Source of the DNA: an uncultured Candidatus Binatia bacterium
Lineage (GTDB): Bacteria > Desulfobacterota > Binatia > Bin18
Assembly (NCBI GenBank): GCA_965220195.1
Contig: CBDCPK010000005.1
Coordinates: 664,717 to 696,716 of the forward strand
Direction: 5' to 3'
Length of the DNA stretch: 32,000 nt
The notes under the pieces are model-generated. The model was not told the origin of the DNA and ran no database searches. It was given only the letters and a program-made list of their open reading frames with translations. The position numbers and the translations under genes are program-made. Of this stretch, positions 5,257 to 23,808 are shown one piece after another (position 1 is the stretch's first letter; each line of letters starts with the position of its first letter).

Positions 5257-6885
5257 TTAGAAGGCGCCAAAGCGTAGGCGGCTGCGTAAGCGGTTCCGAA
5301 TCGCAATCGCAGCCAGGTTCAAGGCAATGACAATCACAATCAGCAGCAGGGTCGTCATAAAGACCATGGGCTTGGCCGCCTCGACATTCGGCGACTGAAA
5401 ACCGACATCGTAAATATGAAACCCCAGGTGCATAAATTTCCGTTCCAGGTGAAAGAACGGCCAGTGGCCGTCAACGGGCAGGGTTGGGGCCAGTTTGACA
5501 ACGCCGGTGATCATCAGCGGAGCGACTTCCCCGGCGCCGCGGGCCATGGCCAGAATAGTCCCGGTCAGGATCCCCGGCAGCGCGCCGGGAATCACGATTT
5601 TTTGCAGGGTCTCCCATTTGGTCGCGCCCAGCGCCAATGAGCCCTCCCGCCACTCTGTTGGGATGGCGGACAACGATTCTTCTGTTGCGACAATAACCAC
5701 CGGGACGGTCAGCAAGGCCAAGGTCAACGAAGCCCACAGAATCCCGCCGGTTCCATAGGTCGGGGTGGGGAGAGAATCCTGGTAGAAGAGCTGGTCCAGC
5801 GACCCGCCGATCACATACACAAAAAACCCGAGGCCAAAGACGCCAAACACAATCGAGGGCACGCCGGCGAGGTTGTTGACCGCAATCCGGACGGCGCGAA
5901 CCAGGGGACCCTGCTTGGCATACTCGCGCAGATACAGGGCGGCAACTACGCCAAAGGGGACCACCACAATACTCATGATGATGACCATCATGACCGTCCC
6001 GAAAATAGCGGGGAACACGCCGCCTTCGGTGTTTGCCTCGCGCGGGTCTTCCCAAAAGAATTCCCAGAAGCGCGTCACATACAGGCCGAGGCGTTCCAAC
6101 CAGTTCATATTATTGGGCAGAAAGCCGCGCACCACACCGGCAATGGCCAGATCTTTCTCTTTGCCGTTAATGTCCTGTACAGTAATGTGATAGCGTGAGT
6201 TTTCCTGGTATAAGGCCGCGAGTTCTTGGGCCTTTTCCTCATAGACCTGTTGCCGGGAGGCTATTTCCTGCTCAAGGCCGGCGACTTTTTCGGCGGCCCG
6301 GGTCGGATCGGTGTCCCGGCGTTGCGTCCGCTTGACCTCAATGCGCAGTTGTTCGAGGTCGTAGTTAATATCCCCGATATCCTTCTTTTCGATGGTGTGG
6401 ATATCATCCAGCGTCGCTTGCGTCCTGGCGTGGAGTTCGAGGAACTTTGGCCAAGCCTGGTCAAAGCCCTCGGCGACGATTTCGCCGTCCTGTCGCACCG
6501 TGGTGAGAAAGCCGAAAAACGGACCCCATTCATACCGTTCCAAATAAATCACCTGCTCGGGAAACGCATGCCCGGTCATCAGGCTGTCATCCACCCAGCG
6601 AAAATCGGAGCCGTACAGGTCGCGGTTGGCGACCTGGAATTGCGTCCGGTAGTATTCCCGGACGTCTCCGGTCTGTTGCGGAATAGCCTCCTGAGCACGG
6701 ACCGCCCCCAGGAGCTTTTGTCCATTCTGAAGGTCAACGGCTCTGAGTTGATCGGGCCAGAAGAACCCGAGCGCATTGGCCCCAACGATCCAAATGAGGG
6801 CAGCGATCATAAGCAGACTGAAGGCCAGGGTTCCCCCTGTCATCCAGATGAAAGGGTCGCCGCTGCGTAGAAAACCTTTGAACAT
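5257..6885 (-). CDS. pstA: Phosphate ABC transporter permease PstA (long form with a large extracytoplasmic insertion)
   Basis: The C-terminal permease core carries the loop [21 protein letters not shown] predicted coiled-coil insertion of ~200 aa follows TM1. The start was set at ATG 6885 (MFKGF), preceded by GGGGGTGG. The alternative start at 6966 would overlap pstC. Confidence 0.85.
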
Positions 6886-6925: not shown

Positions 6926-9259
6926 TTAGATACGGCCATAACGATCTCGTAAACGCTGGCGGACAACTTCCGCCGCGGTATTGACCAAAAACGTTAAAAT
7001 AAAGAGGAGCAGGGCGGCCAGGAAGAGGACGCGGTAGAGCGTCCCGCCGTGAGGCGCTTCCGGGATTTCCACCGCGATATTCGCCGATAAGGCGCGGAAG
7101 CCCGTAAAAGGATCAAAATCCATGACGGGCGTATTGCCGGTGGCCATCAGGACAATCATGGTTTCTCCAACCGCCCGGCCAAAGCCGATCATAATCGCCG
7201 AGAACACACCCGGGCTGGCCGTTGGCAGCACGACCCGCAGGGCGGTTTGCCAGCGCGTCGCCCCAAGCGCTAACGAGCCTGAAATAAGATGCTGGGGCAC
7301 GTTGGAAAAGGCATCTTCACATATGGTGTAGATAATGGGGATAACGGCAAAGCCCATCGCAAAACCCACAACCAGGGAGTTGCGGGGGTCGTACCGCACC
7401 CCGGTGGTGTCGTACAGCCATTGGGGAAAGTCACCGGCGAAAAAGGCCGCCTCAAGTGGGTTGTCAAGCAGGACACACACATAGATGGTGAGCATGAGCA
7501 GCGGGCCCAGAAGCACGAGTTCCGCGCCCGGCTTCAGGCTGCTGCGAAATCCAAGGGGCAGCAGCCGCCAGGCAAATGAGGCGCCCAAGGTCACCAGGGG
7601 CAGTGCAATAAACAGCAGCAGCAGGGCGGGCACCATGTCGGCCACCAGGGGCGCCAGCCACAGACCGGCGAAAAAGCCGAGCACGACGCTGGGCAGGGCG
7701 GCCATCACCTCAACCGAGGGCTTAACCATATTGCGTAGGCGCGGGTGCATGAACTGGGAGGTATATATCGCGCCGCACAAACTGAGGGGAATGGCTAGCA
7801 GCAGAGCGTAAAATGTTCCTTTTAAGGTCCCGTAGGCCAGTGGGGAGAGGCTGAATTTCGGCTCAAAATCGTCCGTTCCACTGCTGGACTGCCAGGTATA
7901 GTCCGGGGCGTCATAGCCCTCGTACCATATCTTCCCGAACAGGGCCGAGAGGGTGATCTCGGGATGAGGGTTGTCAACCGCCCAGTTGTACAGCTGGCCT
8001 TCTTGATTGAGAGCGATGATACCATTTGTCCGGGGGGCATAGGCGAGCTGCGTAATCGGGCTGCCGGTTGTGTCACGGCTCAACATAGTGGCTTCAGTGG
8101 TGGAATACTGTATACGAACCGTGCCGCTGGTATCGCCGGTCACGAAGCCTTTATTCCGTGGAGAGGGGGAGATGGTCGTGATGGCTGCGTCGTGGGACTG
8201 CATGACATGAATTTCACGGAAGGGAAGTTCGGCCGGATTGTCCTGATCGCGCACCTGGAACCAGACACTCACCCCCCCGGCGCCATCTCCCATGACCAGA
8301 GAGCGGTCGCCAATCAACCAGGCCATTACCCGAACGGGAGCCCGCTCCTGACTCCGCAAGCGCGGCATGACCTGGGGCGTGGCGGCGTTGCGAATATCCC
8401 AATGGATCACTTCGCCGGTTTCTAACGCGGCAAAGACGTTCCGCTGTTCCGCATCCAAGGTCAACGCTGTCGCGTCCGCATCCAGCGCAGCTGAGAGCTC
8501 TGTGCGGTGTTCCGATACTTGGGGTTCGCCTAAGAACGATTCTTCGATTGTCCGGGACAGAAAGAGGAGGGTGCGTGGGCCGAGCAGGGCGGCCAGGGTC
8601 ATCTTCTCCTCGTCTTCGCTGGTACTCTGATAAGCCAGAGCACGAATAGCACGGCCCTGCGGGTCGAGGACAATCGCCTCGTCTTCCGTGACCTGAGGCG
8701 TGCTGATGCGGGTCTTGCCCTCAAACGAGACCGGGAAGGAGATCGTCAGGGGAATAACGACACCGTCAGCGGTTCCGAGCGCGGCGGTGTGGGTCAGGTT
8801 GCGATAGTGGACCGCAGTGATCCGTCGTCCCTGCAGGGCTTGGATCTCATAACGCTGGAGGAGGCGGTTGTCTGAGAGGGAGAGAAAATCAACCGTTCCC
8901 GTCTGGGTAATGGTGTAGGCGATCTCTCGATATTCATCGATGCCCAGAGCCAAGACATCCGTATGAGGCCCGTTGCCGACCAGATGAGTCAACGGAATTG
9001 GCGGGGTCTCAAGCTCCGCAGTGGGTGCCTTCCAGAGGGGTAAGGTTTCGGCCACGATCACAAAGAGAATAGCGGCAATACTCAGAATAACGGCAAAGCC
9101 ACCAGCAGTGATCAGGATAGTCGCAGCCTTATCAACCAGCTTTTTCCGCTGGAGTCGGCTTTTATCTTCAGTCGCCGAGAGACGGACGCCGACCGGCTGC
9201 GCTCCGTTTGCGGCCGGCAGCGATGACGGTTGGGATGGACGTTCCTGCGTCTCCGGCAT
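6926..9259 (-). CDS. pstC: Phosphate ABC transporter permease PstC (long form with ~400-aa N-terminal periplasmic repeat domain)
   Basis: The C-terminal permease core carries [20 protein letters not shown]. The N-terminal part has one TM segment, then repeated beta-propeller-like motifs (GEVIHWDIRN, GGVSVWFQVRD, SGTVRIQYS, EGQLYNWAVDN). AAGGTAGG lies upstream of the ATG. Confidence 0.8.
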   Translation of the reverse strand: MPETQERPSQPSSLPAANGAQPVGVRLSATEDKSRLQRKKLVDKAATILITAGGFAVILSIAAILFVIVAETLPLWKAPTAELETPPIPLTHLVGNGPHTDVLALGIDEYREIAYTITQTGTVDFLSLSDNRLLQRYEIQALQGRRITAVHYRNLTHTAALGTADGVVIPLTISFPVSFEGKTRISTPQVTEDEAIVLDPQGRAIRALAYQSTSEDEEKMTLAALLGPRTLLFLSRTIEESFLGEPQVSEHRTELSAALDADATALTLDAEQRNVFAALETGEVIHWDIRNAATPQVMPRLRSQERAPVRVMAWLIGDRSLVMGDGAGGVSVWFQVRDQDNPAELPFREIHVMQSHDAAITTISPSPRNKGFVTGDTSGTVRIQYSTTEATMLSRDTTGSPITQLAYAPRTNGIIALNQEGQLYNWAVDNPHPEITLSALFGKIWYEGYDAPDYTWQSSSGTDDFEPKFSLSPLAYGTLKGTFYALLLAIPLSLCGAIYTSQFMHPRLRNMVKPSVEVMAALPSVVLGFFAGLWLAPLVADMVPALLLLFIALPLVTLGASFAWRLLPLGFRSSLKPGAELVLLGPLLMLTIYVCVLLDNPLEAAFFAGDFPQWLYDTTGVRYDPRNSLVVGFAMGFAVIPIIYTICEDAFSNVPQHLISGSLALGATRWQTALRVVLPTASPGVFSAIMIGFGRAVGETMIVLMATGNTPVMDFDPFTGFRALSANIAVEIPEAPHGGTLYRVLFLAALLLFILTFLVNTAAEVVRQRLRDRYGRI

Positions 9260-9311: not shown

Positions 9312-9366
9312 AAAGAGGGAACGTGTCCAGCCTTGTACCTGCTATTAGAGGACACGTTTCCTCTTT
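9312..9366. repeat. Palindromic ~55-bp element, copy 1 (arms AAAGAGGGAACGTGTCC / GGACACGTTTCCTCTTT)
   Basis: The 17-bp inverted arms have 1 mismatch and a 21-nt spacer. It lies in the pstS-pstC intergenic region. It belongs to the same family as the copies at 23244, 25945, 27178 and 28877. Confidence 0.85.
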
Positions 9367-11845: not shown

Positions 11846-11978
11846 ATGGTATGTCTCCTCCTCCAGTGTTGAATTCTTGCTCTGACGTTTCTCCAGTACC
11901 TCGGTTGACGCATATATGCCGTTTCCGCAGATCACCCCCTCTCGTGTGGGCCGGAGGTGAACAAGGTAAGTTCGCACT

Positions 11979-12018
11979 GTTACAAGAGAGTGACAGGGCC
12001 GTTATGAATGCGTGAAAA
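11979..12018 (-). promoter_or_regulatory. Pho-box array (candidate PhoB site) for the oprP-pst-phoUBR operon
   Basis: The minus strand reads TTTTCAC GCAT TCATAAC GGCC CTGTCAC TCTC TTGTAAC, which is four heptamers at an exact 11-bp phase (11979, 11990, 12001, 12012). It lies ~135 bp upstream of the oprP ATG. Confidence 0.75.
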
Positions 12019-12044
12019 TCCAGGTCGGGTATGTATCGACGAGG

Positions 12045-12458
12045 TTAGCCGATTGCCTGACAGCCTGCGGGTCTCGACTTGTTCAAAGCGGGGGAGAGCT
12101 GCCGGTGGACAAGCAGACAGAGTTCGGAAATGGAAAATGGCTTGCTTAAACAGTGGTGTACGCCGCTATGTTGCAGTTCTTTTTGCTGCCGCTGGGAAGC
12201 AAGGGCGCTCACCACAATAATCGGGATCTGACGAACGCGCGCATCTGGATACCGGCGGATATGTTCGAGAACCTGCCAGCCGCTTTTCAGCGGCAGCAGG
12301 AGGTCTAACGTCACCAAGTCGGGTCCGAAGGATTCAACCCGCATGCAGGCCTGCTCTCCATCTTCGGCGATTTCGACGCAGTAGCCTGCCTGCTCCAGAT
12401 TATAGGCAATCAGGTGAGCAATACTGGGCTCATCCTCCACTACCAGAACTTTTTTCAA
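12045..12458 (-). CDS. Single-domain (CheY-like) response-regulator receiver protein
   Basis: Has the receiver motifs KKVLVVEDEPSI, LVTLDLLLP and CLSKPF and no output domain. The TTG start at 12458 is preceded by TAAGGAGGGAAC. Confidence 0.75.
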   Translation of the reverse strand: MKKVLVVEDEPSIAHLIAYNLEQAGYCVEIAEDGEQACMRVESFGPDLVTLDLLLPLKSGWQVLEHIRRYPDARVRQIPIIVVSALASQRQQKELQHSGVHHCLSKPFSISELCLLVHRQLSPALNKSRPAGCQAIG

Positions 12459-12544
12459 CAGCGCGTTCCCTCCTTACGGCCAGAGGGGATAGTAGGAATG
12501 TGAGATTGCAGGCATATGGCAAGCCTGTGAAAAAACAATGATTT

Positions 12545-13804
12545 TCAGTGCTGCTGCACGGTGGTTTGCCCTTCCTGAGGTGATACTCCCTGAGCGGATT
12601 GGAGGGTAGGAGCGGGGGCGGTCGAGGCAAACCAGCCCTCGGTGCGCTGGCAGAAGCGCACCAGCAGCAGCATCACCGGGACCTCGATGAGCACACCCAC
12701 GACGGTCGCCAGGGCGGCTCCGGATGACAGCCCGAACAGCATGGTTGCCGTGGCAATGGCAACCTCGAAATGGTTGGAGGCACCAATGAGCGCGGTTGGG
12801 GCCGCATTCTGGTACGATAGTCTGAGGACTCTCGCCAGTCCGTACGCCAGGGCGAAAACAAGGACTGTTTGAATGAAGAGAGGAATCGCGATCCAGCCTA
12901 TCATCAGCGGATTGGACAGAATCATTTCGCCCTTGAGGGAGAAGAGCAGGACCAGGGTGATGAGCAGGGCGCTAATGGTGACCGGCGTGAGAAAGTGCAG
13001 GAACCGCTCCCGGAACCATTGTTCGCCTTTGGTCCGCATAATCCACTGACGCGAGCAGTAGCCGGCCACCAGCGGAAGGGCGACATACACGCCAATAGAC
13101 AGCAGCAGGGCCTGCCAGGGGACCGGCAGACGGCCGATCCCGAGGAGCACATCGCCCAGCACGCCGTACAGGACGAGCATGGTCAGGGAATTAATCGCGA
13201 CCATGACAAGCGTCAGGCCATCATTGCCCTTAGCCAGATAGCCCCAGACCAAGACCATGGCCGTACAGGGTGCGATGCCCAGCAGGATACAACCCGCCAG
13301 ATAGCTGCGCCACAGCGGCACCTCCAACATCTTGATGCCGTCAACCACCACGACGGTCCCGGAGCCGTAATACGACCCCACCGGCAGATTGAGACCGAAC
13401 GGCATCTTGACGTGGTCAACGGCATCCGGACCGATCACATCGAGAAAGAAGGTCCCGAGAAAAAGAACGGCAATCACATACATGGTGAAGGGTTTAATGG
13501 CCCAATTGATAAATAGGGTGAGTCCAACCGGTCGGACGCTTTTCCCCGCTCGAACGACCTCGGCAAAGTCGATTTTGACCATGATGGGGTACATCATGAA
13601 GAACAAGCAGATCGCAATCGGAATCGAGACCACCGGCGCGTCGCCAACATATAAGGAAAGCCCGTCGAGAAAAGTCGCCATACCCGGTACGACACTCCCC
13701 AGACCAATGCCCGCGGCAATGCACAACAGAACCCAGACGGTCAGGTAGCGCTCAAAAACACTCAGCCCCTGCGACGGCTTAAACGGAGATGGTTTGGTTG
13801 CCAT
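12545..13804 (-). CDS. acr3: ACR3-family arsenite efflux permease
   Basis: The N-terminus [24 protein letters not shown] and the conserved Cys motif [12 protein letters not shown] are typical of ACR3. About 10 TM segments are present. Confidence 0.8.
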
Positions 13805-19593: not shown

Positions 19594-20418
19594 TTACGCG
19601 CATTCGCGCAATGTTATGCGATCACTAACCGTGATGAATGTTGCTGGTGTCTCCGTCCAGCAGCCCGTGTTATAGTAGGCCACCCCGGCAGATTGTTGAG
19701 ACATGGGATAATGCGTATGCCCGCAGAAAATCTGGGTCGCATCCCGTTTTTTCGCATACGATAATGCGCCCCAGGCTATCTGCTCGGATATACGCAGCCA
19801 CGTTTTGCTGCTGTGCTTGAGGAGACGGCTCAAACGGTAGTGACGTGGCTCAATGCGTTGGATGGTTCGATAGAGCTGATCCGCAGGACCGGTGATATAC
19901 GGATAGCGGGTAATGAAGGTATCAAACTGATGCCCGTGCAAGGCCAGCAACTTTTTTCCTCCATGGACCCATTCATACTGTTTGTAGATCGGAATCCCGA
20001 GAAAGGTCTGGATCACTTTGGAGAGCAGCCGATCATGGTTCCCTTCAACCCAGACCACCTCAATACCGCTCTGGGGCGCCGCCAGCTTTTGCACATGGGA
20101 GAGCAGACTCCAGTGACTTGGATGGAGTTTGGCAAAATTAAGATCGTCAAAGATATCGCCGAGCAGGATGAGCCGGTTAAACGTCAAGCGCTTGAGAGTA
20201 GCGAGTAGCGCATCCGCTCGGCTCACTCCGGTTCCTAAATGCACATCAGAGACAATGAGCGTGTCGACAACGTCAGAGACTACTCGCCGCTCTGCGGGGA
20301 GGGAGTTGCCTGGGGAGGGAGTTGTGCGCTTGAGTAGCGGAATGAAGAGCTGGGAAGACTGGGAGAAATGACCAAGCAGCTTCTGGTCTCCTACCCGCCT
20401 CGCAATACCTCGTGCCAC
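19594..20418 (-). CDS. Calcineurin-like metallophosphoesterase, LpxH/PlcP-like (candidate phospholipase C for lipid remodelling)
   Basis: All the metallophosphoesterase motifs are present: SDVHLG, LLGDIFD, VEGNHD, LHGHQFD and CGHTHYP. The GTG start at 20418 has no clear SD, so the start is uncertain. Confidence 0.65.
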   Translation of the reverse strand: MARGIARRVGDQKLLGHFSQSSQLFIPLLKRTTPSPGNSLPAERRVVSDVVDTLIVSDVHLGTGVSRADALLATLKRLTFNRLILLGDIFDDLNFAKLHPSHWSLLSHVQKLAAPQSGIEVVWVEGNHDRLLSKVIQTFLGIPIYKQYEWVHGGKKLLALHGHQFDTFITRYPYITGPADQLYRTIQRIEPRHYRLSRLLKHSSKTWLRISEQIAWGALSYAKKRDATQIFCGHTHYPMSQQSAGVAYYNTGCWTETPATFITVSDRITLRECA

Positions 20419-21830: not shown

Positions 21831-23228
21831 TCAGACAAATTGCAGAAACAGGGTCAGAATGCCCAAAAAAGACAAAAAGCCAAAGATATCGGTGCACGCG
21901 GTCACAAACACGTTTGAGGCCACCGCCGGATCAACCCCCAAACGACGGAGAGTCAGGGGGACCATACTCCCAACAAAGGCCGCAATGATCAGGTTGGCCA
22001 GCAGCGCCAGCGCCAGCACGACACCCAGTGTGGCATCACCCTTCCACAGATAGGCAACGATGCCGGCCGCACAGCCAAGGGCAAGACCATTGCCCAGCGC
22101 GATGGTCAGTTCCTTGACTAACACCCGCTTGGTTTGGGTCAGTGGGACTTCCCCAAGCGCAATACCCCGCACGATAACGGTCAGCGTTTGCACGCCGGCA
22201 TTCCCGCCTTGGGCTGCGACAATCGTCATAAAGGCCGCGGCAATGGCAATTTGCTGAATCGTCCCCTCAAAAAAGGCAATGACCAGAGCGCTCAGCGTGG
22301 TAGTCACCAAATTGAGTGCCAGCCAGGGCAGGCGCAGACGGATGGACTGCCAAGGCGAGTCCAGCACTTCTTCCTCTTCATCGAGACCGGCAAGCTTATA
22401 AATGTCTTCCGTCGCCTCCTCCTCCATGACATCCACCACGTCATCAACCGTAATACGCCCGAGTAAGCACCCTTCGCTATCGACTACGGGCAGAGAAATC
22501 AGGTCATATTTTTTAAACATCTGGGCGACCTGTTCCTGGTCCAGGTCAACCCGAACCGAAATAACCTGCTGGTCCATGACGGTTTCGACGAGATCAGTCG
22601 GGCGGGCGAGAATAAACTTTCTGAGGGGGAGGACGCCAACGAGGCGATTGGTGGTATTAACGATAAAGACGCTGTGGATATCTGGTATTTCATCGCTCCG
22701 ACTGCGAATCATCTCAGTGGCCTGGTCGATACGCGTCCCTTGGGATACGGCCATATACTCGACCTGCATGATCCCGCCAGCCGTATCCTCGGGATAGCGT
22801 AAGAGTTGGGTGACTTCGTCGGACACGTCCTGCGGCACTTCGTCAAGGACCGCCTTGGCACGGCGGGCCGACAGGGAGGCCAGCAGATCCGCAGCATCAT
22901 CAGAGTCAAGATATTCGAGCAGGTCCCCGAGCCCGTCATCCGACAGACGTTCGACAAGATCGTCTTGGGTGTGTGCGGAAACGAGACTCAAGACTTCGGC
23001 TGCTTGCGGTGCAGCCAGAAAGCCGAACACCTTAAACTTCACCTCGGGCTCTTCCAGCACATTCAATAACTCTGCGGTGTCCGCCGGATGGAGGGCGGCT
23101 ATCCCTGTCCGCACCATCTCGTCCTGACCCAACTCAGCCTGAATGACGAGATGTTCGAGGGAAGGCGGTTGCGGAGGTTCCTGAGGAGAGGCCGCTGCAA
23201 CCGGCGGATATGTCGTCTGCACTTCCAT
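21831..23228 (-). CDS. mgtE: Magnesium transporter MgtE
   Basis: Has the MgtE N-domain (LHPADTAELL), tandem CBS region and C-terminal 5-TM channel domain. The start was set at ATG 23228 (MEVQTTY). The longer ORF to 23387 reads through the palindromic repeat. Confidence 0.85.
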   Translation of the reverse strand: MEVQTTYPPVAAASPQEPPQPPSLEHLVIQAELGQDEMVRTGIAALHPADTAELLNVLEEPEVKFKVFGFLAAPQAAEVLSLVSAHTQDDLVERLSDDGLGDLLEYLDSDDAADLLASLSARRAKAVLDEVPQDVSDEVTQLLRYPEDTAGGIMQVEYMAVSQGTRIDQATEMIRSRSDEIPDIHSVFIVNTTNRLVGVLPLRKFILARPTDLVETVMDQQVISVRVDLDQEQVAQMFKKYDLISLPVVDSEGCLLGRITVDDVVDVMEEEATEDIYKLAGLDEEEEVLDSPWQSIRLRLPWLALNLVTTTLSALVIAFFEGTIQQIAIAAAFMTIVAAQGGNAGVQTLTVIVRGIALGEVPLTQTKRVLVKELTIALGNGLALGCAAGIVAYLWKGDATLGVVLALALLANLIIAAFVGSMVPLTLRRLGVDPAVASNVFVTACTDIFGFLSFLGILTLFLQFV

Positions 23229-23243
23229 GCGTCGTCTCGCTTC

Positions 23244-23297
23244 AAAGAGGAAACGTGTCCAGCATCTCTCTATCATTGGAGAGCACGTTTCCTCTTT
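23244..23297. repeat. Palindromic ~55-bp element, copy 2
   Basis: Sequence is AAAGAGGAAACGTGTCC AGCATCTCTCTATCATTGGA GAGCACGTTTCCTCTTT. It starts 16 bp upstream of the mgtE ATG. Confidence 0.85.
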
Positions 23298-23380
23298 TCG
23301 TCCGAACTGTAGCTGCCAAATCACAAAAGATGAATGGCCTGGAATGAGATGAGAGCGCCCAGAGCGGGTGTGACCTAACA

Positions 23381-23420
23381 GCGTCACACATTTTTCATCG
23401 TAGCGTCACAATGTTGTCAT
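23381..23420 (+). promoter_or_regulatory. Pho-box array, distal unit upstream of ppk1
   Basis: Reads GCGTCAC ACAT TTTTCAT CGTA GCGTCAC AATG TTGTCAT, with heptamers at 23381, 23392, 23403 and 23414 (11-bp phase). Confidence 0.55.
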
Positions 23421-23446
23421 ACAATGAGGAAACATAGGGGCAGGAA

Positions 23447-23545
23447 ACGCTATCCCTACCCCCCGGCGCTGGTAGGCGCCGTGCCGATCCGCCTCCCTAG
23501 GATCACACGCCCTACCAGCGCGCCCCCACTATCGTGGACTCCTAT
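23447..23545 (+). repeat. Structured ~95-bp direct repeat, copy A
   Basis: Nearly identical to 23614-23707. It contains competing pairings: CCTACC (23455) with GGTAGG (23471), CGGCGC (23464) with GCGCCG (23476), CGCTGGTAGG (23467) with CCTACCAGCG (23511), and GATCC (23486) with GGATC (23500). Confidence 0.8.
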
Positions 23546-23552
23546 ACTGCAT

Positions 23553-23592
23553 GGATCATCAGATTTTCACCGACCTGTCACTCCTATGTAAA
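23553..23592 (+). promoter_or_regulatory. Pho-box array, proximal unit upstream of ppk1
   Basis: Reads GGATCAT CAGA TTTTCAC CGAC CTGTCAC TCCT ATGTAAA, with heptamers at 23553, 23564, 23575 and 23586 (11-bp phase). Confidence 0.65.
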
Positions 23593-23613
23593 ATCTCTTC
23601 GATAGGACAGAAG

Positions 23614-23707
23614 ACGCTATCCCTACCCCCCGGCGCTGGTAGGTGCCGTGTCGATCTCCCTCCCTAGGATCACACGCCCTGGCAGCGCCCCTTCCTCTCG
23701 CTCCTAT
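23614..23707 (+). repeat. Structured ~95-bp direct repeat, copy B (likely part of the ppk1 5' leader)
   Basis: Sequence ACGCTATCCCTACCCCCCGGCGCTGGTAGGTGCCGTG...CCCTAGGATCACACGCCCT... matches copy A with a few substitutions and indels. It begins ~21 bp after the proximal Pho-box array. Confidence 0.8.
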
Positions 23708-23808
23708 GAACTCGTATCGGTTCGTGTAGCGCAGGATTCGGGTATTCTCTACGGGGTTGCTATTCAGCGGGCTGAGCTTATATCTATCGTTGTCGGATCG
23801 TACACCGG

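What the first reader, a model, noticed from the sequence alone, without database searches (positions are those of the whole stretch)
23381..23707. Tandem ~170-bp duplication of a Pho-box promoter plus structured ~95-nt module upstream of ppk1
Two homologous units lie head-to-tail on the plus strand. Unit 1 has four phased heptamers (23381-23420), then a shared ATAGG (candidate -10), then repeat A (23447-23545). Unit 2 has four phased heptamers (23553-23592), ATAGG, and repeat B (23614-23707), followed 100 bp later by ppk1. Each repeat begins ~21-27 bp after its array, about where a PhoB-dependent transcript would start. Each repeat contains mutually exclusive pairings around GGTAGG. It can pair upstream with CCTACC or downstream as CGCTGGTAGG with CCTACCAGCG, and a competing CGGCGC/GCGCCG hairpin is also possible. 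This is the layout of a switchable leader. Between copies, GCGCCG changes to GTGCCG. That keeps a G-U pair only in the plus-strand RNA, which argues for function as plus-strand RNA. Neither copy ends in a U-run, so they look like leaders or cis-regulatory RNAs rather than terminated sRNAs. I recognise no known riboswitch class in them.
Basis: partly seen in the sequence, partly recalled or inferred. Interest (0 to 1): 0.65.

Follow-up and report, generated by a model that had tools for sequence, protein, structure and literature searches.

The report
Tandem phosphate-starvation small RNA candidates
Two copies of a previously undescribed, well-conserved RNA hairpin with pyrimidine-rich tails, each behind its own phosphate-starvation promoter, sit upstream of the polyphosphate kinase gene of an uncultured Binatia bacterium. 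They look more like small regulatory RNAs than like a switchable leader of that gene.

Summary
The repeat is real: two 87-nt copies, 89% identical and 167 bp apart. Each follows an array of TCAY heptamers phased at 11 bp, the same array that precedes the window's own porin-pst operon. Only the RNA module is demonstrably duplicated, not the whole 170-bp unit.

The module recurs in Candidatus Binatia MAGs only, at one locus per genome in one or two copies. It is not a dispersed repeat and matches no Rfam family. It folds as one long hairpin: 95.9% of cells are paired, and 14 of 22 pairs show compensatory changes. The RNA strand is the plus strand (52 G-U cells against 3 A-C cells). Sequence conservation lies in three unpaired CU-rich stretches: the 5' tail, the apical loop CCUCCCU, and the 3' tail.

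In one clade an intrinsic terminator follows the module. In two distant relatives the module, with its own heptamer array, lies downstream of ppk1.

Best reading (about 0.5): Pho-regulon small RNAs with anti-Shine-Dalgarno-like seeds, duplicated in tandem. Rivals are a cis leader of ppk1 and a Rho-dependent attenuator. No transcription, PhoB binding or target has been shown.

The parts
23381..23422 (+). Promoter type A. It has four heptamers phased at 11 bp: GCGTCAC, TTTTCAT, GCGTCAC and TTGTCAT, with TCAY at 23384, 23395, 23406 and 23417. This is a candidate double Pho box.
   Evidence: Read directly. Phased TCAY arrays occur only here and at promoter B in the window (3 hits against 0.01 expected). 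The array aligns in phase with the window's own porin-pst promoter and with the module promoters of L003 and L088. It is conserved in L001, L002, L003, L024, L038, L045 and L059.
23420..23438 (+). Candidate -10 elements for promoter A: TACAAT at 23420-23425, or CATAGG at 23433-23438. The start site is therefore expected somewhere within 23431-23447.
   Evidence: Sequence. CATAGG aligns with CATACT of L003 at the same distance from the array and from the module. TACAAT is kept in L001 where CATAGG is lost. The choice is unresolved and inferred only.
23447..23545 (+). RNA module A. It has a 5' CU-rich tail (23447-23464, ACGCUAUCCCUACCCCCC), a hairpin (23466-23521) with apical loop GCCUCCCUA (23491-23499), and a 3' C-rich tail.
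   Evidence: The covariance model hit scores 97.4 bits. MFE is -41.3 kcal/mol with z = -5.07.
23553..23594 (+). Promoter type B. It has phased heptamers (TCAT 23556, TCAC 23567, TCAC 23578, TAAA 23589) overlapping a sigma-70-like pair, TTCACC-17-TAAAAT (23566-23594).
   Evidence: Its 3' half, CCTGTCACTCCTATGTAAAATC, closely matches the porin-pst promoter CCTGTCACTCTCTTGTAACAGT. The same promoter type drives ppx-ppk1 directly in L002 without a module.
23614..23712 (+). RNA module B. It has a 5' CU-rich tail (23614-23631), a hairpin (23632-23689) with apical loop CCCUCCCUA (23658-23666), and a 3' CU-rich tail CCUUCCUCUCGCUCCUAUG (23690-23708).
   Evidence: The covariance model hit scores 110.2 bits. 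MFE is -33.7 kcal/mol with z = -3.58.
23751..23784 (+). Conserved block ACGGGGTTGCTA-N16-TATATC between module B and ppk1. It may be a proximal ppk1 promoter or another conserved 5'-UTR element.
   Evidence: The block is conserved in L001, L012, L036, L039, L045 and L050. It is recognisable in L024, L038, L059 and L003. The consensus promoter scan did not call it, so the promoter assignment is inference.
23824..25938 (+). ppk1, polyphosphate kinase 1. The start is most likely at 23824, giving 704 aa as in relatives. The ORF is also open from 23809.
   Evidence: All four PPK domains are found by Pfam. Homologues of 704 aa are 96-97% identical.
21831..23228 (-). mgtE (Mg2+ transporter), divergent neighbour.
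   Evidence: Pfam finds MgtE_N, CBS and MgtE. tblastn places the start at 23228.

Best explanation
The two repeats are tandem paralogous genes for a small structured RNA restricted to a clade of uncultured Candidatus Binatia. Each is transcribed on the plus strand from its own PhoB-type (Pho box) promoter, so both should be induced by phosphate starvation.

The RNA consists of a stable 56-58-nt hairpin that presents a CU-rich apical loop (CCUCCCU). It is flanked by single-stranded CU-rich tails (UAUCCCUACCCCCC on the 5' side, CCCCUUCCUCUC on the 3' side). These three unpaired pyrimidine tracts resemble the anti-Shine-Dalgarno sequence. They are proposed to act as seed regions that pair with purine-rich ribosome-binding sites of target mRNAs in trans, which would adjust translation during phosphate limitation.

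In the window no terminator is visible. The same transcripts may therefore also read on into ppk1, or be ended by Rho or by processing.

Shown: the repeat, its conservation, the structure, the strand, the promoter-like arrays, and the variable position relative to ppk1.
Inferred: PhoB control, transcript ends, and trans action on ribosome-binding sites.
For: 1. Conservation and single locus. A pattern scan of 185,579 species genomes found true copies only in Binatia MAGs, at one locus each and always next to ppk1 on its strand. Covariance model hits score 63-110 bits in 21 copies.
2. Structure. On the alignment of 20 distinct copies, 95.9% of cells are paired and 14 of 22 pairs carry compensatory changes. 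No shuffle of 500 reached the observed values, and slid controls gave 30-50% paired. Independent single-sequence folds give the same hairpin in L003, L038, L088, L170 and L002.
3. Strand. There are 52 G-U cells against 3 A-C cells. Pairing is 95.7% on the plus strand and 84.6% on the minus strand. Fold z-scores are better on the plus strand.
4. What is conserved. When the stems are completely replaced (L003 inner stem; L088 and L170 both stems), the CU-rich tails and loop persist. Reinkensmeier and Giegerich describe the same conservation pattern for the anti-SD cuckoo sRNAs (PMC4615179).
5. Own promoter. A four-heptamer array phased at 11 bp sits directly upstream of every copy, including the distant ones. 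The same array precedes the porin-pst operon in the window and the RR-porin-pst operons of relatives.
6. Independence from ppk1. An intrinsic terminator follows the module in L003 and L043, with a compensatory stem change. In L002 a second Pho-type promoter lies between the module and ppx. In L088 and L170 the module lies downstream of ppk1, in front of unrelated genes.
7. Not coding. There are 1-2-nt indels between close copies.
Against: - There is no expression data: no start site, no transcript end and no PhoB binding is shown.
- In the window clade there is no terminator after either copy. The module is strictly linked to and co-oriented with ppk1 in 13 of 15 lineages examined, which also fits a leader.
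- Predicted pairing to translation-initiation regions in the window is not better than background. The best values are -20.4 for pstS and -20.1 for phoU, against a 5% background tail of -20.6.
- The -10 element is ambiguous (TACAAT or CATAGG).
- The pair counts were made on an alignment fitted to the model. However, RNAalifold on a MAFFT alignment found the same outer helix and the apical part of the inner stem (18 pairs; it missed the three-pair GUG/CAC helix).
Confidence: 0.5

Rival explanations
1. The module is a cis-acting 5' leader of ppk1. Pho-dependent ppk1 transcripts would start upstream of the modules, and the hairpin with its CU-rich tails would control elongation, stability or translation of ppk1. 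It might do this as a riboswitch or a protein-binding leader.
For: - The module lies upstream of and co-oriented with ppk1 or ppx-ppk1 in the window and in 12 related loci.
- No terminator separates it from ppk1 in the window.
- The proposed proximal promoter is imperfect, and the consensus scan did not call it.
- Tandem cis-regulatory RNA elements are a known arrangement (my own knowledge).
Against: - In L088 and L170 the module lies after ppk1, in front of a 68-aa ORF and an M50 peptidase respectively.
- The L003/L043 clade has an intrinsic terminator and then about 480 nt before ppk1.
- L002 has a Pho-type promoter downstream of the module that would bypass it.
- The alternative helices do not covary.
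- Conservation lies in the unpaired tails and the loop, not in internal loops or junctions as in ligand-binding cores.
- ppk1 has no strong Shine-Dalgarno sequence for the CU tracts to sequester, and the predicted interaction is weak (-11.6 kcal/mol).
Confidence: 0.22
2. The module is a Rho-dependent attenuator or terminator. The C-rich, G-poor tails on either side of a hairpin would act as a split rut site, as rutA-boxB-rutB does at lambda tR1. Rho would end Pho-promoter transcripts before ppk1 unless termination is relieved.
For: - The plus-strand C/G ratio is 1.6-2.2 across 23440-23720, which is the 95th-99th percentile of the window.
- The unpaired tails have C/G ratios of 2.5-11.
- There is no intrinsic terminator in the window clade.
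- This reading is compatible with the sRNA reading, because Rho could form the sRNA 3' end.
Against: - Specific sequence motifs (UCCCU, CCUCCC) are conserved, rather than mere C-richness.
- One clade uses an intrinsic terminator instead.
Confidence: 0.12
3. The module is a protein-binding RNA or a sponge. The CU-rich tracts would bind a pyrimidine-specific RNA-binding protein (ribosomal protein S1 or a KH-domain protein), or would titrate G-rich RNAs, rather than pairing with ribosome-binding sites.
For: Each unit carries three repeated CU-rich unpaired tracts, doubled by the tandem arrangement. Sponges for C-rich sRNAs and G-rich partners are known in Bacillus (PMC8216469).
Against: No candidate protein or G-rich partner was identified. 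The only strong G-rich matches in the window lie antisense to coding regions.
Confidence: 0.08
4. The module is a DNA-level repeat: a REP or MITE-like element, a protein-binding palindrome, or a G-quadruplex-forming minus strand, with no RNA function.
For: The sequence is an imperfect palindrome and is duplicated. The window does contain a genuine dispersed palindromic element elsewhere.
Against: - There is one locus per genome in complete Binatia chromosomes, and no other copy in 32 kb.
- The strong strand asymmetry of G-U against A-C (52 to 3) is expected for RNA, not for DNA cruciforms.
- Compensatory changes keep the helix while the sequence changes.
Confidence: 0.03

Closest known systems
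C-rich-region sRNAs of Firmicutes: RoxS/RsaE, and FsrA (Fur-regulated)
   Same: These are short RNAs with several unpaired C-rich tracts, used to pair with ribosome-binding sites of targets (PMC8216469). FsrA is switched on by a nutrient-limitation regulator, as proposed here for PhoB.
   Different: There is no sequence or Rfam relationship. The phylum differs. Here there is a single long hairpin with CU-rich tails on both sides, and in the window there is no terminator. Targets are unknown.
Cuckoo / CcsR1-4 / NfeR1 (alpha-r14) family of Alphaproteobacteria
   Same: The loops resemble the anti-Shine-Dalgarno sequence and are conserved while the stems drift by compensatory change. These RNAs occur in clusters of adjacent copies (PMC4615179).
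   Different: The defining loop motif CCUCCUCCC is absent from the window. Each unit here has one hairpin rather than 2-4. CU-rich tracts also lie outside the hairpin. Each copy has its own promoter. Regulation is by stress in that family and by Pho here.
PrrF1/PrrF2 of Pseudomonas aeruginosa (from my own knowledge, not checked here)
   Same: These are two near-identical sRNA genes in direct tandem. Each has its own binding site for a nutrient-sensing regulator (Fur there, a Pho box here), and read-through transcription is possible.
   Different: The nutrient, regulator logic, sequence and structure all differ. PrrF ends in terminators.
PhoS sRNA of Bacillus (PhoP-dependent, phosphate-starvation induced)
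   Same: It is an sRNA induced by the Pho two-component system that acts at a ribosome-binding site (PMC11522486).
   Different: PhoS is a 66-nt RNA derived from the 3' UTR of phoPR. It is unrelated in sequence, position and organism.
Lambda tR1 rutA-boxB-rutB (from my own knowledge)
   Same: C-rich, G-poor tracts flank a hairpin downstream of a promoter.
   Different: Rho dependence is untested here, and the specific motifs conserved here are not required of rut sites.

Membership tests
Any Rfam 15 family (riboswitches, leaders, sRNAs) | The covariance model score reaches the family's gathering threshold. | tested here: not met
   There were no matches in the window at gathering thresholds. 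There were none in 23230-23830 at E<=10. In relatives only a tRNA and miRNA-hairpin noise appeared.
Cuckoo / CcsR sRNA family | The loop motif CCUCCUCCC is present in each hairpin. | tested here: not met
   CCTCCTCCC is absent from the window on both strands. The loops here are GCCUCCCUA and CCCUCCCUA.
Cuckoo / CcsR sRNA family | Each RNA has two to four adjacent hairpins. | tested here: not met
   There is one extended hairpin per unit.
Cuckoo / CcsR sRNA family | A C-rich loop is conserved while the stems vary by compensatory mutation. | tested here: met
   14 of 22 pairs carry compensatory changes. The stems are fully replaced in L088 and L170 while the CU-rich loop and tails are kept.
Trans-acting base-pairing sRNA (general) | It is a discrete transcription unit with its own promoter and terminator. 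| tested here: inconclusive
   Promoter-like Pho arrays precede every copy. An intrinsic terminator is present in L003 and L043 but absent in the window.
Trans-acting base-pairing sRNA (general) | Seed complementarity to target mRNAs is conserved. | tested here: inconclusive
   Only the roughly 25 genes of the window could be scanned, and the best initiation-region duplexes are within background. Whole genomes were not available to the tools.
Riboswitch / switchable cis leader | It lies in the 5' UTR of the regulated gene in all members. | tested here: not met
   The module lies downstream of ppk1 in L088 and L170. In L003 and L043 a terminator and about 480 nt separate it from ppk1.
Riboswitch / switchable cis leader | Conserved, mutually exclusive alternative helices are present. 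| tested here: not met
   The CCUACC/GGUAGG alternative has 1 pair with a double change, a level that 91 of 500 shuffles reach. Its central pairs are broken in 8 of 14 and 6 of 15 sequences.
Riboswitch / switchable cis leader | It binds a ligand. | not testable with these tools
   In-line probing would be needed.
PhoB-dependent (Pho box) promoter | Direct 7-bp repeats related to CTGTCAT are phased at 11 bp. | tested here: met
   Four phased TCAY heptamers precede each module. The window has 3 triple-phased hits against 0.01 expected.
PhoB-dependent (Pho box) promoter | The same element lies upstream of core Pho regulon operons of the same organism. | tested here: met
   The window porin-pst promoter aligns in phase. 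Arrays also precede the RR-porin-pst operons in L088 and L086.
PhoB-dependent (Pho box) promoter | PhoB binds and the promoter is induced at low phosphate. | not testable with these tools
   EMSA, a reporter assay or a metatranscriptome would be needed.
REP / MITE-type dispersed repeat | Many dispersed copies occur per genome. | tested here: not met
   There is one locus per genome in the species-genome scan, including complete chromosomes. The only copies in the window are the two tandem ones.
Rho-dependent terminator (rut site) | There is a C-rich, G-poor stretch of about 70-80 nt. | tested here: met
   The C/G ratio is 1.6-2.2 over 23440-23720, the 95th-99th percentile of the window.
Rho-dependent terminator (rut site) | Termination depends on Rho. 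| not testable with these tools
   In vitro transcription or bicyclomycin treatment would be needed.

The most novel reading that the evidence does not exclude
The module could be a ligand- or signal-sensing cis-regulatory RNA of the Pho regulon. It might respond to phosphate, polyphosphate, Mg2+ (mgtE is the divergent neighbour) or an alarmone, be used in tandem, and gate transcription into whatever gene follows it. The terminator of the L003 clade would then be its expression platform. To my knowledge no phosphate- or polyphosphate-sensing riboswitch is known.
Probability: 0.05. Interest if true: 0.9.

Novelty: new member of a known kind. Interest (0 to 1): 0.45.

Why it matters
RNA regulators of phosphate homeostasis are few. 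A 2024 paper states that almost all known regulators of bacterial phosphorus metabolism are proteins (PMC11522486). To my knowledge, nothing is known about riboregulation in the uncultured phylum Binatota.

If these RNAs are PhoB-induced anti-Shine-Dalgarno sRNAs, they would be a phosphate counterpart of the iron-sparing sRNAs (RyhB, PrrF, FsrA). They would also be physically tied to the polyphosphate kinase locus.

The family comes with a calibrated covariance model and 20 distinct copies. It could therefore be submitted as a new RNA family and looked for in soil and sediment metatranscriptomes.

Tried and rejected
- Dispersed repeat (REP/MITE): rejected. There is a single locus per genome.
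- Known RNA family: rejected. Rfam gave nothing at gathering thresholds or at E<=10, in the window or in relatives.
- Minus-strand RNA (for example GGA-motif, CsrA-sponge-like loops): considered, because the minus strand reads AGGGAGG in the loop. Rejected on the G-U against A-C asymmetry and the weaker folds.
- Small ORF: rejected, because 1-2-nt indels separate close copies.
- Wider distribution: model R1 was run over 29 loci and model R2 over 58 ppk1 loci (545 kb). These included 27 relatives from JGI metagenomes with 62-72% Ppk1 identity. The only hits were false positives inside ppk1 coding sequence. L086 and L171 (72-76% Ppk1 identity) have no copy within 4-10 kb.
- Target prediction: duplex scans of the whole window and of 25 initiation regions were dominated by self-antisense matches and did not exceed background. 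The long Shine-Dalgarno sequences of the CheY-like RR gene (UAAGGAGGGAAC in the window, UAGGGAGGAAAC in L001) and of pstS are complementary to the loop and the 3' tail. They are leads only.
- Proximal ppk1 promoter: the conserved TTGCTA-N16-TATATC block is suggestive but was not called by the scan, so it is left open.
- Literature: searches for a ppk-associated RNA motif found nothing.
Full report
**Setting**

The finding lies in the 580-bp gap between the divergent genes mgtE (21831-23228, minus strand) and ppk1 (23824-25938, plus strand; the ORF is also open from 23809). The first 12 kb of the window carry the core Pho regulon on the minus strand: phoR, phoB, phoU, pstB, pstA, a WD40-fused pstC, pstS, a porin O/P gene and a CheY-like regulator gene.

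The closest Ppk1 proteins (86-97% identity) come from unnamed metagenome assemblies, and the next named ones are Candidatus Binatia MAGs. A DNA scan of species genomes later confirmed the lineage as Candidatus Binatia.

**The observation**

- An 87-nt direct repeat is present, 23438-23524 against 23605-23691, at 89% identity and 167 bp apart. Its cores occur exactly twice in the window, against about 0 expected.
- Each copy is preceded by TCAY motifs phased at 11 bp. Triple-phased arrays occur in the window only at these two places, 3 hits against 0.01 in shuffles.
- The two 170-bp units are not homologous as wholes. Outside the module the alignment is essentially unrelated.
- There are two promoter types. 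Type A reads GCGTCAC-N4-TTTTCAT-N4-GCGTCAC-N4-TTGTCAT. Type B reads TTTTCACC-gacc-TGTCACT-cctatg-TAAAAT.
- Both types recur in relatives, sometimes separately. L012 has only type B with a module. L024, L038, L045 and L059 have only type A with a module. L002 has type A with a module, followed by type B without a module directly in front of ppx-ppk1.

**Are the arrays Pho boxes?**

The window's own porin-pst promoter (11968-12036, minus strand) has the same four-heptamer array. Its 3' half, CCTGTCACTCTCTTGTAAC, is close to type B, CCTGTCACTCCTATGTAAA. Equivalent arrays precede the RR-porin-pst operons in L088 and L086.

The repeats resemble the E. coli CTGTCAT consensus, with 11-bp phasing (established knowledge). 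PhoB binding itself is inferred.

The -10 element is ambiguous. For unit 2 it could be TAAAAT (23589-23594) or ATAGGA. Either way the RNA would start within roughly 0-20 nt of the module's first base.

**Distribution**

A degenerate pattern for the outer helix was scanned over 185,579 species genomes and returned 76 stretches. Only those from Binatia MAGs are true copies (one of these MAGs is labelled Thermodesulfobacteriota). The rest are coding sequence or chance.

Every true copy lies at one locus per genome, next to ppk1 and on its strand. This holds for complete chromosomes too, so the module is not a dispersed repeat.

A covariance model found 21 copies at 63-110 bits.

| Copy number | Loci |
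|---|---|
| Two tandem copies | window, L001/L039, L036, L050 |
| One copy | L002, L003/L004/L006/L008/L043, L012, L024, L038, L045, L059 |

L045 and L024 combine a type A promoter with a B-type 3' tail, and L045 is internally mosaic. This suggests collapse or gene conversion between tandem copies (inference).

**Structure**

Each copy folds into one extended hairpin. The energies are -41.3 and -33.7 kcal/mol, with z = -5.1 and -3.6.

- RNAalifold on a MAFFT alignment recovers the outer helix and the apical part of the inner stem (18 pairs), but not the three-pair GUG/CAC helix.
- On the model-guided alignment of 20 distinct copies, 95.9% of cells are paired and 14 of 22 pairs carry compensatory changes. 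No shuffle of 500 reaches the observed values, and slid controls give 30-50% paired. This alignment is fitted to the model, which favours the structure.
- Independent single-sequence folds of L003, L038, L002, L088 and L170 give the same architecture with different stem sequences.
- The strand is the plus strand. There are 52 G-U cells against 3 A-C cells, with 95.7% paired on the plus strand and 84.6% on the minus strand.

**What is conserved**

The conserved sequence is not in the stems. It lies in three unpaired CU-rich tracts: the 5' tail (UAUCCCUACCCCCC), the apical loop (CUCCCUCCCUA) and the 3' tail (CCCCUUCCUCUCGCUCC).

| Locus | 5' tail | Loop | 3' tail |
|---|---|---|---|
| L003 clade | - | CUUCCCUCUCCA | UCCUUCCCCCCGCCUUCCCC |
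| L088 | UCCCUCCCCUACC | CUCUCCCA | GCCCUCCUCAUUGCCCAGCCUCCGCUC |
| L170 | CACCCCCC | CCCCUCUCCCUCC | UCCUCCUGCUUC |

The tracts resemble the anti-Shine-Dalgarno sequence.

**Relation to ppk1**

Four observations argue that the module is its own unit rather than a ppk1-specific leader.

1. In the L003/L043 clade an intrinsic terminator follows about 35 nt after the hairpin. It reads GCGGCGAATCCGCCGT plus T6 in L003, and GCGGCAAACTCGCCGC followed by CC and then T5 in L043. About 480 nt of unrelated sequence then precede ppk1. That defines an RNA of about 125-130 nt.
2. In L002 a type B Pho promoter lies between the module and ppx-ppk1.
3. In two more distant relatives (Ppk1 73% identical) the module lies downstream of ppx-ppk1 with its own four-heptamer array. 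In L088 it is at 6179-6268, in front of a 68-aa ORF. In L170 it is at 12225-12319, in front of an M50 peptidase gene. R1 gave E = 2e-4 and 4e-6 for these.
4. A conserved block, ACGGGGTTGCTA-N16-TATATC, lies between module B and ppk1 and could be a proximal promoter. It is imperfect and the scan did not call it.

Against independence, the window clade shows no terminator, and linkage to ppk1 is otherwise strict.

**Mechanism**

The best-supported reading is a Pho-regulon small RNA whose three accessible CU-rich tracts pair with purine-rich ribosome-binding sites. It would be present as two paralogues with separate promoters.

This works like the C-rich-region sRNAs RoxS and FsrA (PMC8216469). 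It also works like the anti-SD cuckoo/CcsR family, where loops are conserved and stems drift (PMC4615179). The tandem layout recalls PrrF1/PrrF2 (my own knowledge).

It is not a member of those families. There is no Rfam match, no CCUCCUCCC motif, and only one hairpin per unit.

Target prediction within the window was uninformative. The long Shine-Dalgarno sequences of the CheY-like RR gene and of pstS are complementary to the loop and the 3' tail, but no more so than background.

**Rivals**

- A cis leader of ppk1 (0.22).
- A Rho-dependent attenuator (0.12). The plus-strand C/G ratio is 1.6-2.2 across the modules, the 95th-99th percentile of the window. This could also be how the sRNA 3' end is made.
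- A protein-binding RNA or sponge (0.08).
- A DNA-level repeat (0.03).

**Limits**

No expression data were available. PhoB control, transcript boundaries and trans action are all inferred. The family's true phylogenetic range is probably underestimated, because the genome scan used a sequence pattern for a helix that covaries. Further members were sought only near ppk1.

**Verdict**

The region holds a genuine, previously undescribed structured RNA family of an uncultured phylum, under Pho-box-type promoters. It is of a known general kind (nutrient-regulated sRNA with anti-SD-like seeds) and is of moderate interest. Its 'switchable leader' interpretation is not supported.

Noticed in passing
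window 9315-9363, 23244-23297, 25948-25995, 27181-27228; also L001 9420-9467, L024 3818-3865, L036 1135-1182 and 4778-4825, L039, L050: There is a dispersed REP-like palindromic element, GAGGAAACGTG-N26-CACGTTTCCTC (14-bp perfect arms at 23244-23297). Half-sites match 9 times in the window against 0.69 expected. It sits in intergenic spots: between pstC and pstS, 5' of mgtE, and just 3' of the ppk1 stop. In L024, L036 and L050 it lies immediately upstream of the ppk1 ATG. Its purine arm AGAGGAA is complementary to the module's 3' tail UUCCUCU.
   Followed up: partly
window 6926-9259 (-): The pstC-like permease is 777 aa and carries an N-terminal WD40/beta-propeller-like region fused to the BPD_transp_1 domain. 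The same fusion is called in L001, L088 and L171. This is an unusual architecture for PstC.
   Followed up: no
L003 9520-9860 (and L043): The roughly 340 nt between the sRNA-like terminator and the ppk1 promoter region contain repeated TTCGACAAG / GTCGAAG motifs (cttcgacaacttcaggga, tttgtcgaagagtcgaggg, ccttcgacaagctcagga, cctgtcgaagggtcgaaagg). They look like an inserted repeat array or a set of binding sites.
   Followed up: no
L088 6300-6385 and L170 9440-9502: CU-rich tracts lie immediately upstream of strong Shine-Dalgarno sequences: UCUCUCCUCU ... GAGAGGAGAAACUAUG in L088, and CCCUCCCUCUUUCUUCGGAGGAGAAAAAGUUCAUG before ppx in L170. They are predicted to sequester the ribosome-binding site in cis (for L088). 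In these genomes, C-rich anti-SD logic therefore also appears within mRNA leaders.
   Followed up: partly
window 12476-12546 (-) and 12090-12462 (-): A CheY-like single-domain response regulator gene heads the porin-pst cluster. It has its own Pho-box-like array and an unusually long Shine-Dalgarno sequence (UAAGGAGGGAAC), which is complementary to the module loop UCCCUCC.
   Followed up: partly
window 23368-23389 (+): The inverted repeat GTGTGAC-N8-GTCACAC overlaps the first heptamer of promoter A. The scan flagged it as terminator-like. It is not conserved in L001 or L045, so it is probably incidental.
   Followed up: yes
window 20286-20330 (+): There is a tandem GGGGAGGGAGTTG x2, perfectly complementary to the module loop. 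However, it lies antisense to the 5' part of the metallophosphoesterase gene (minus strand), so it is unlikely to be a target.
   Followed up: no
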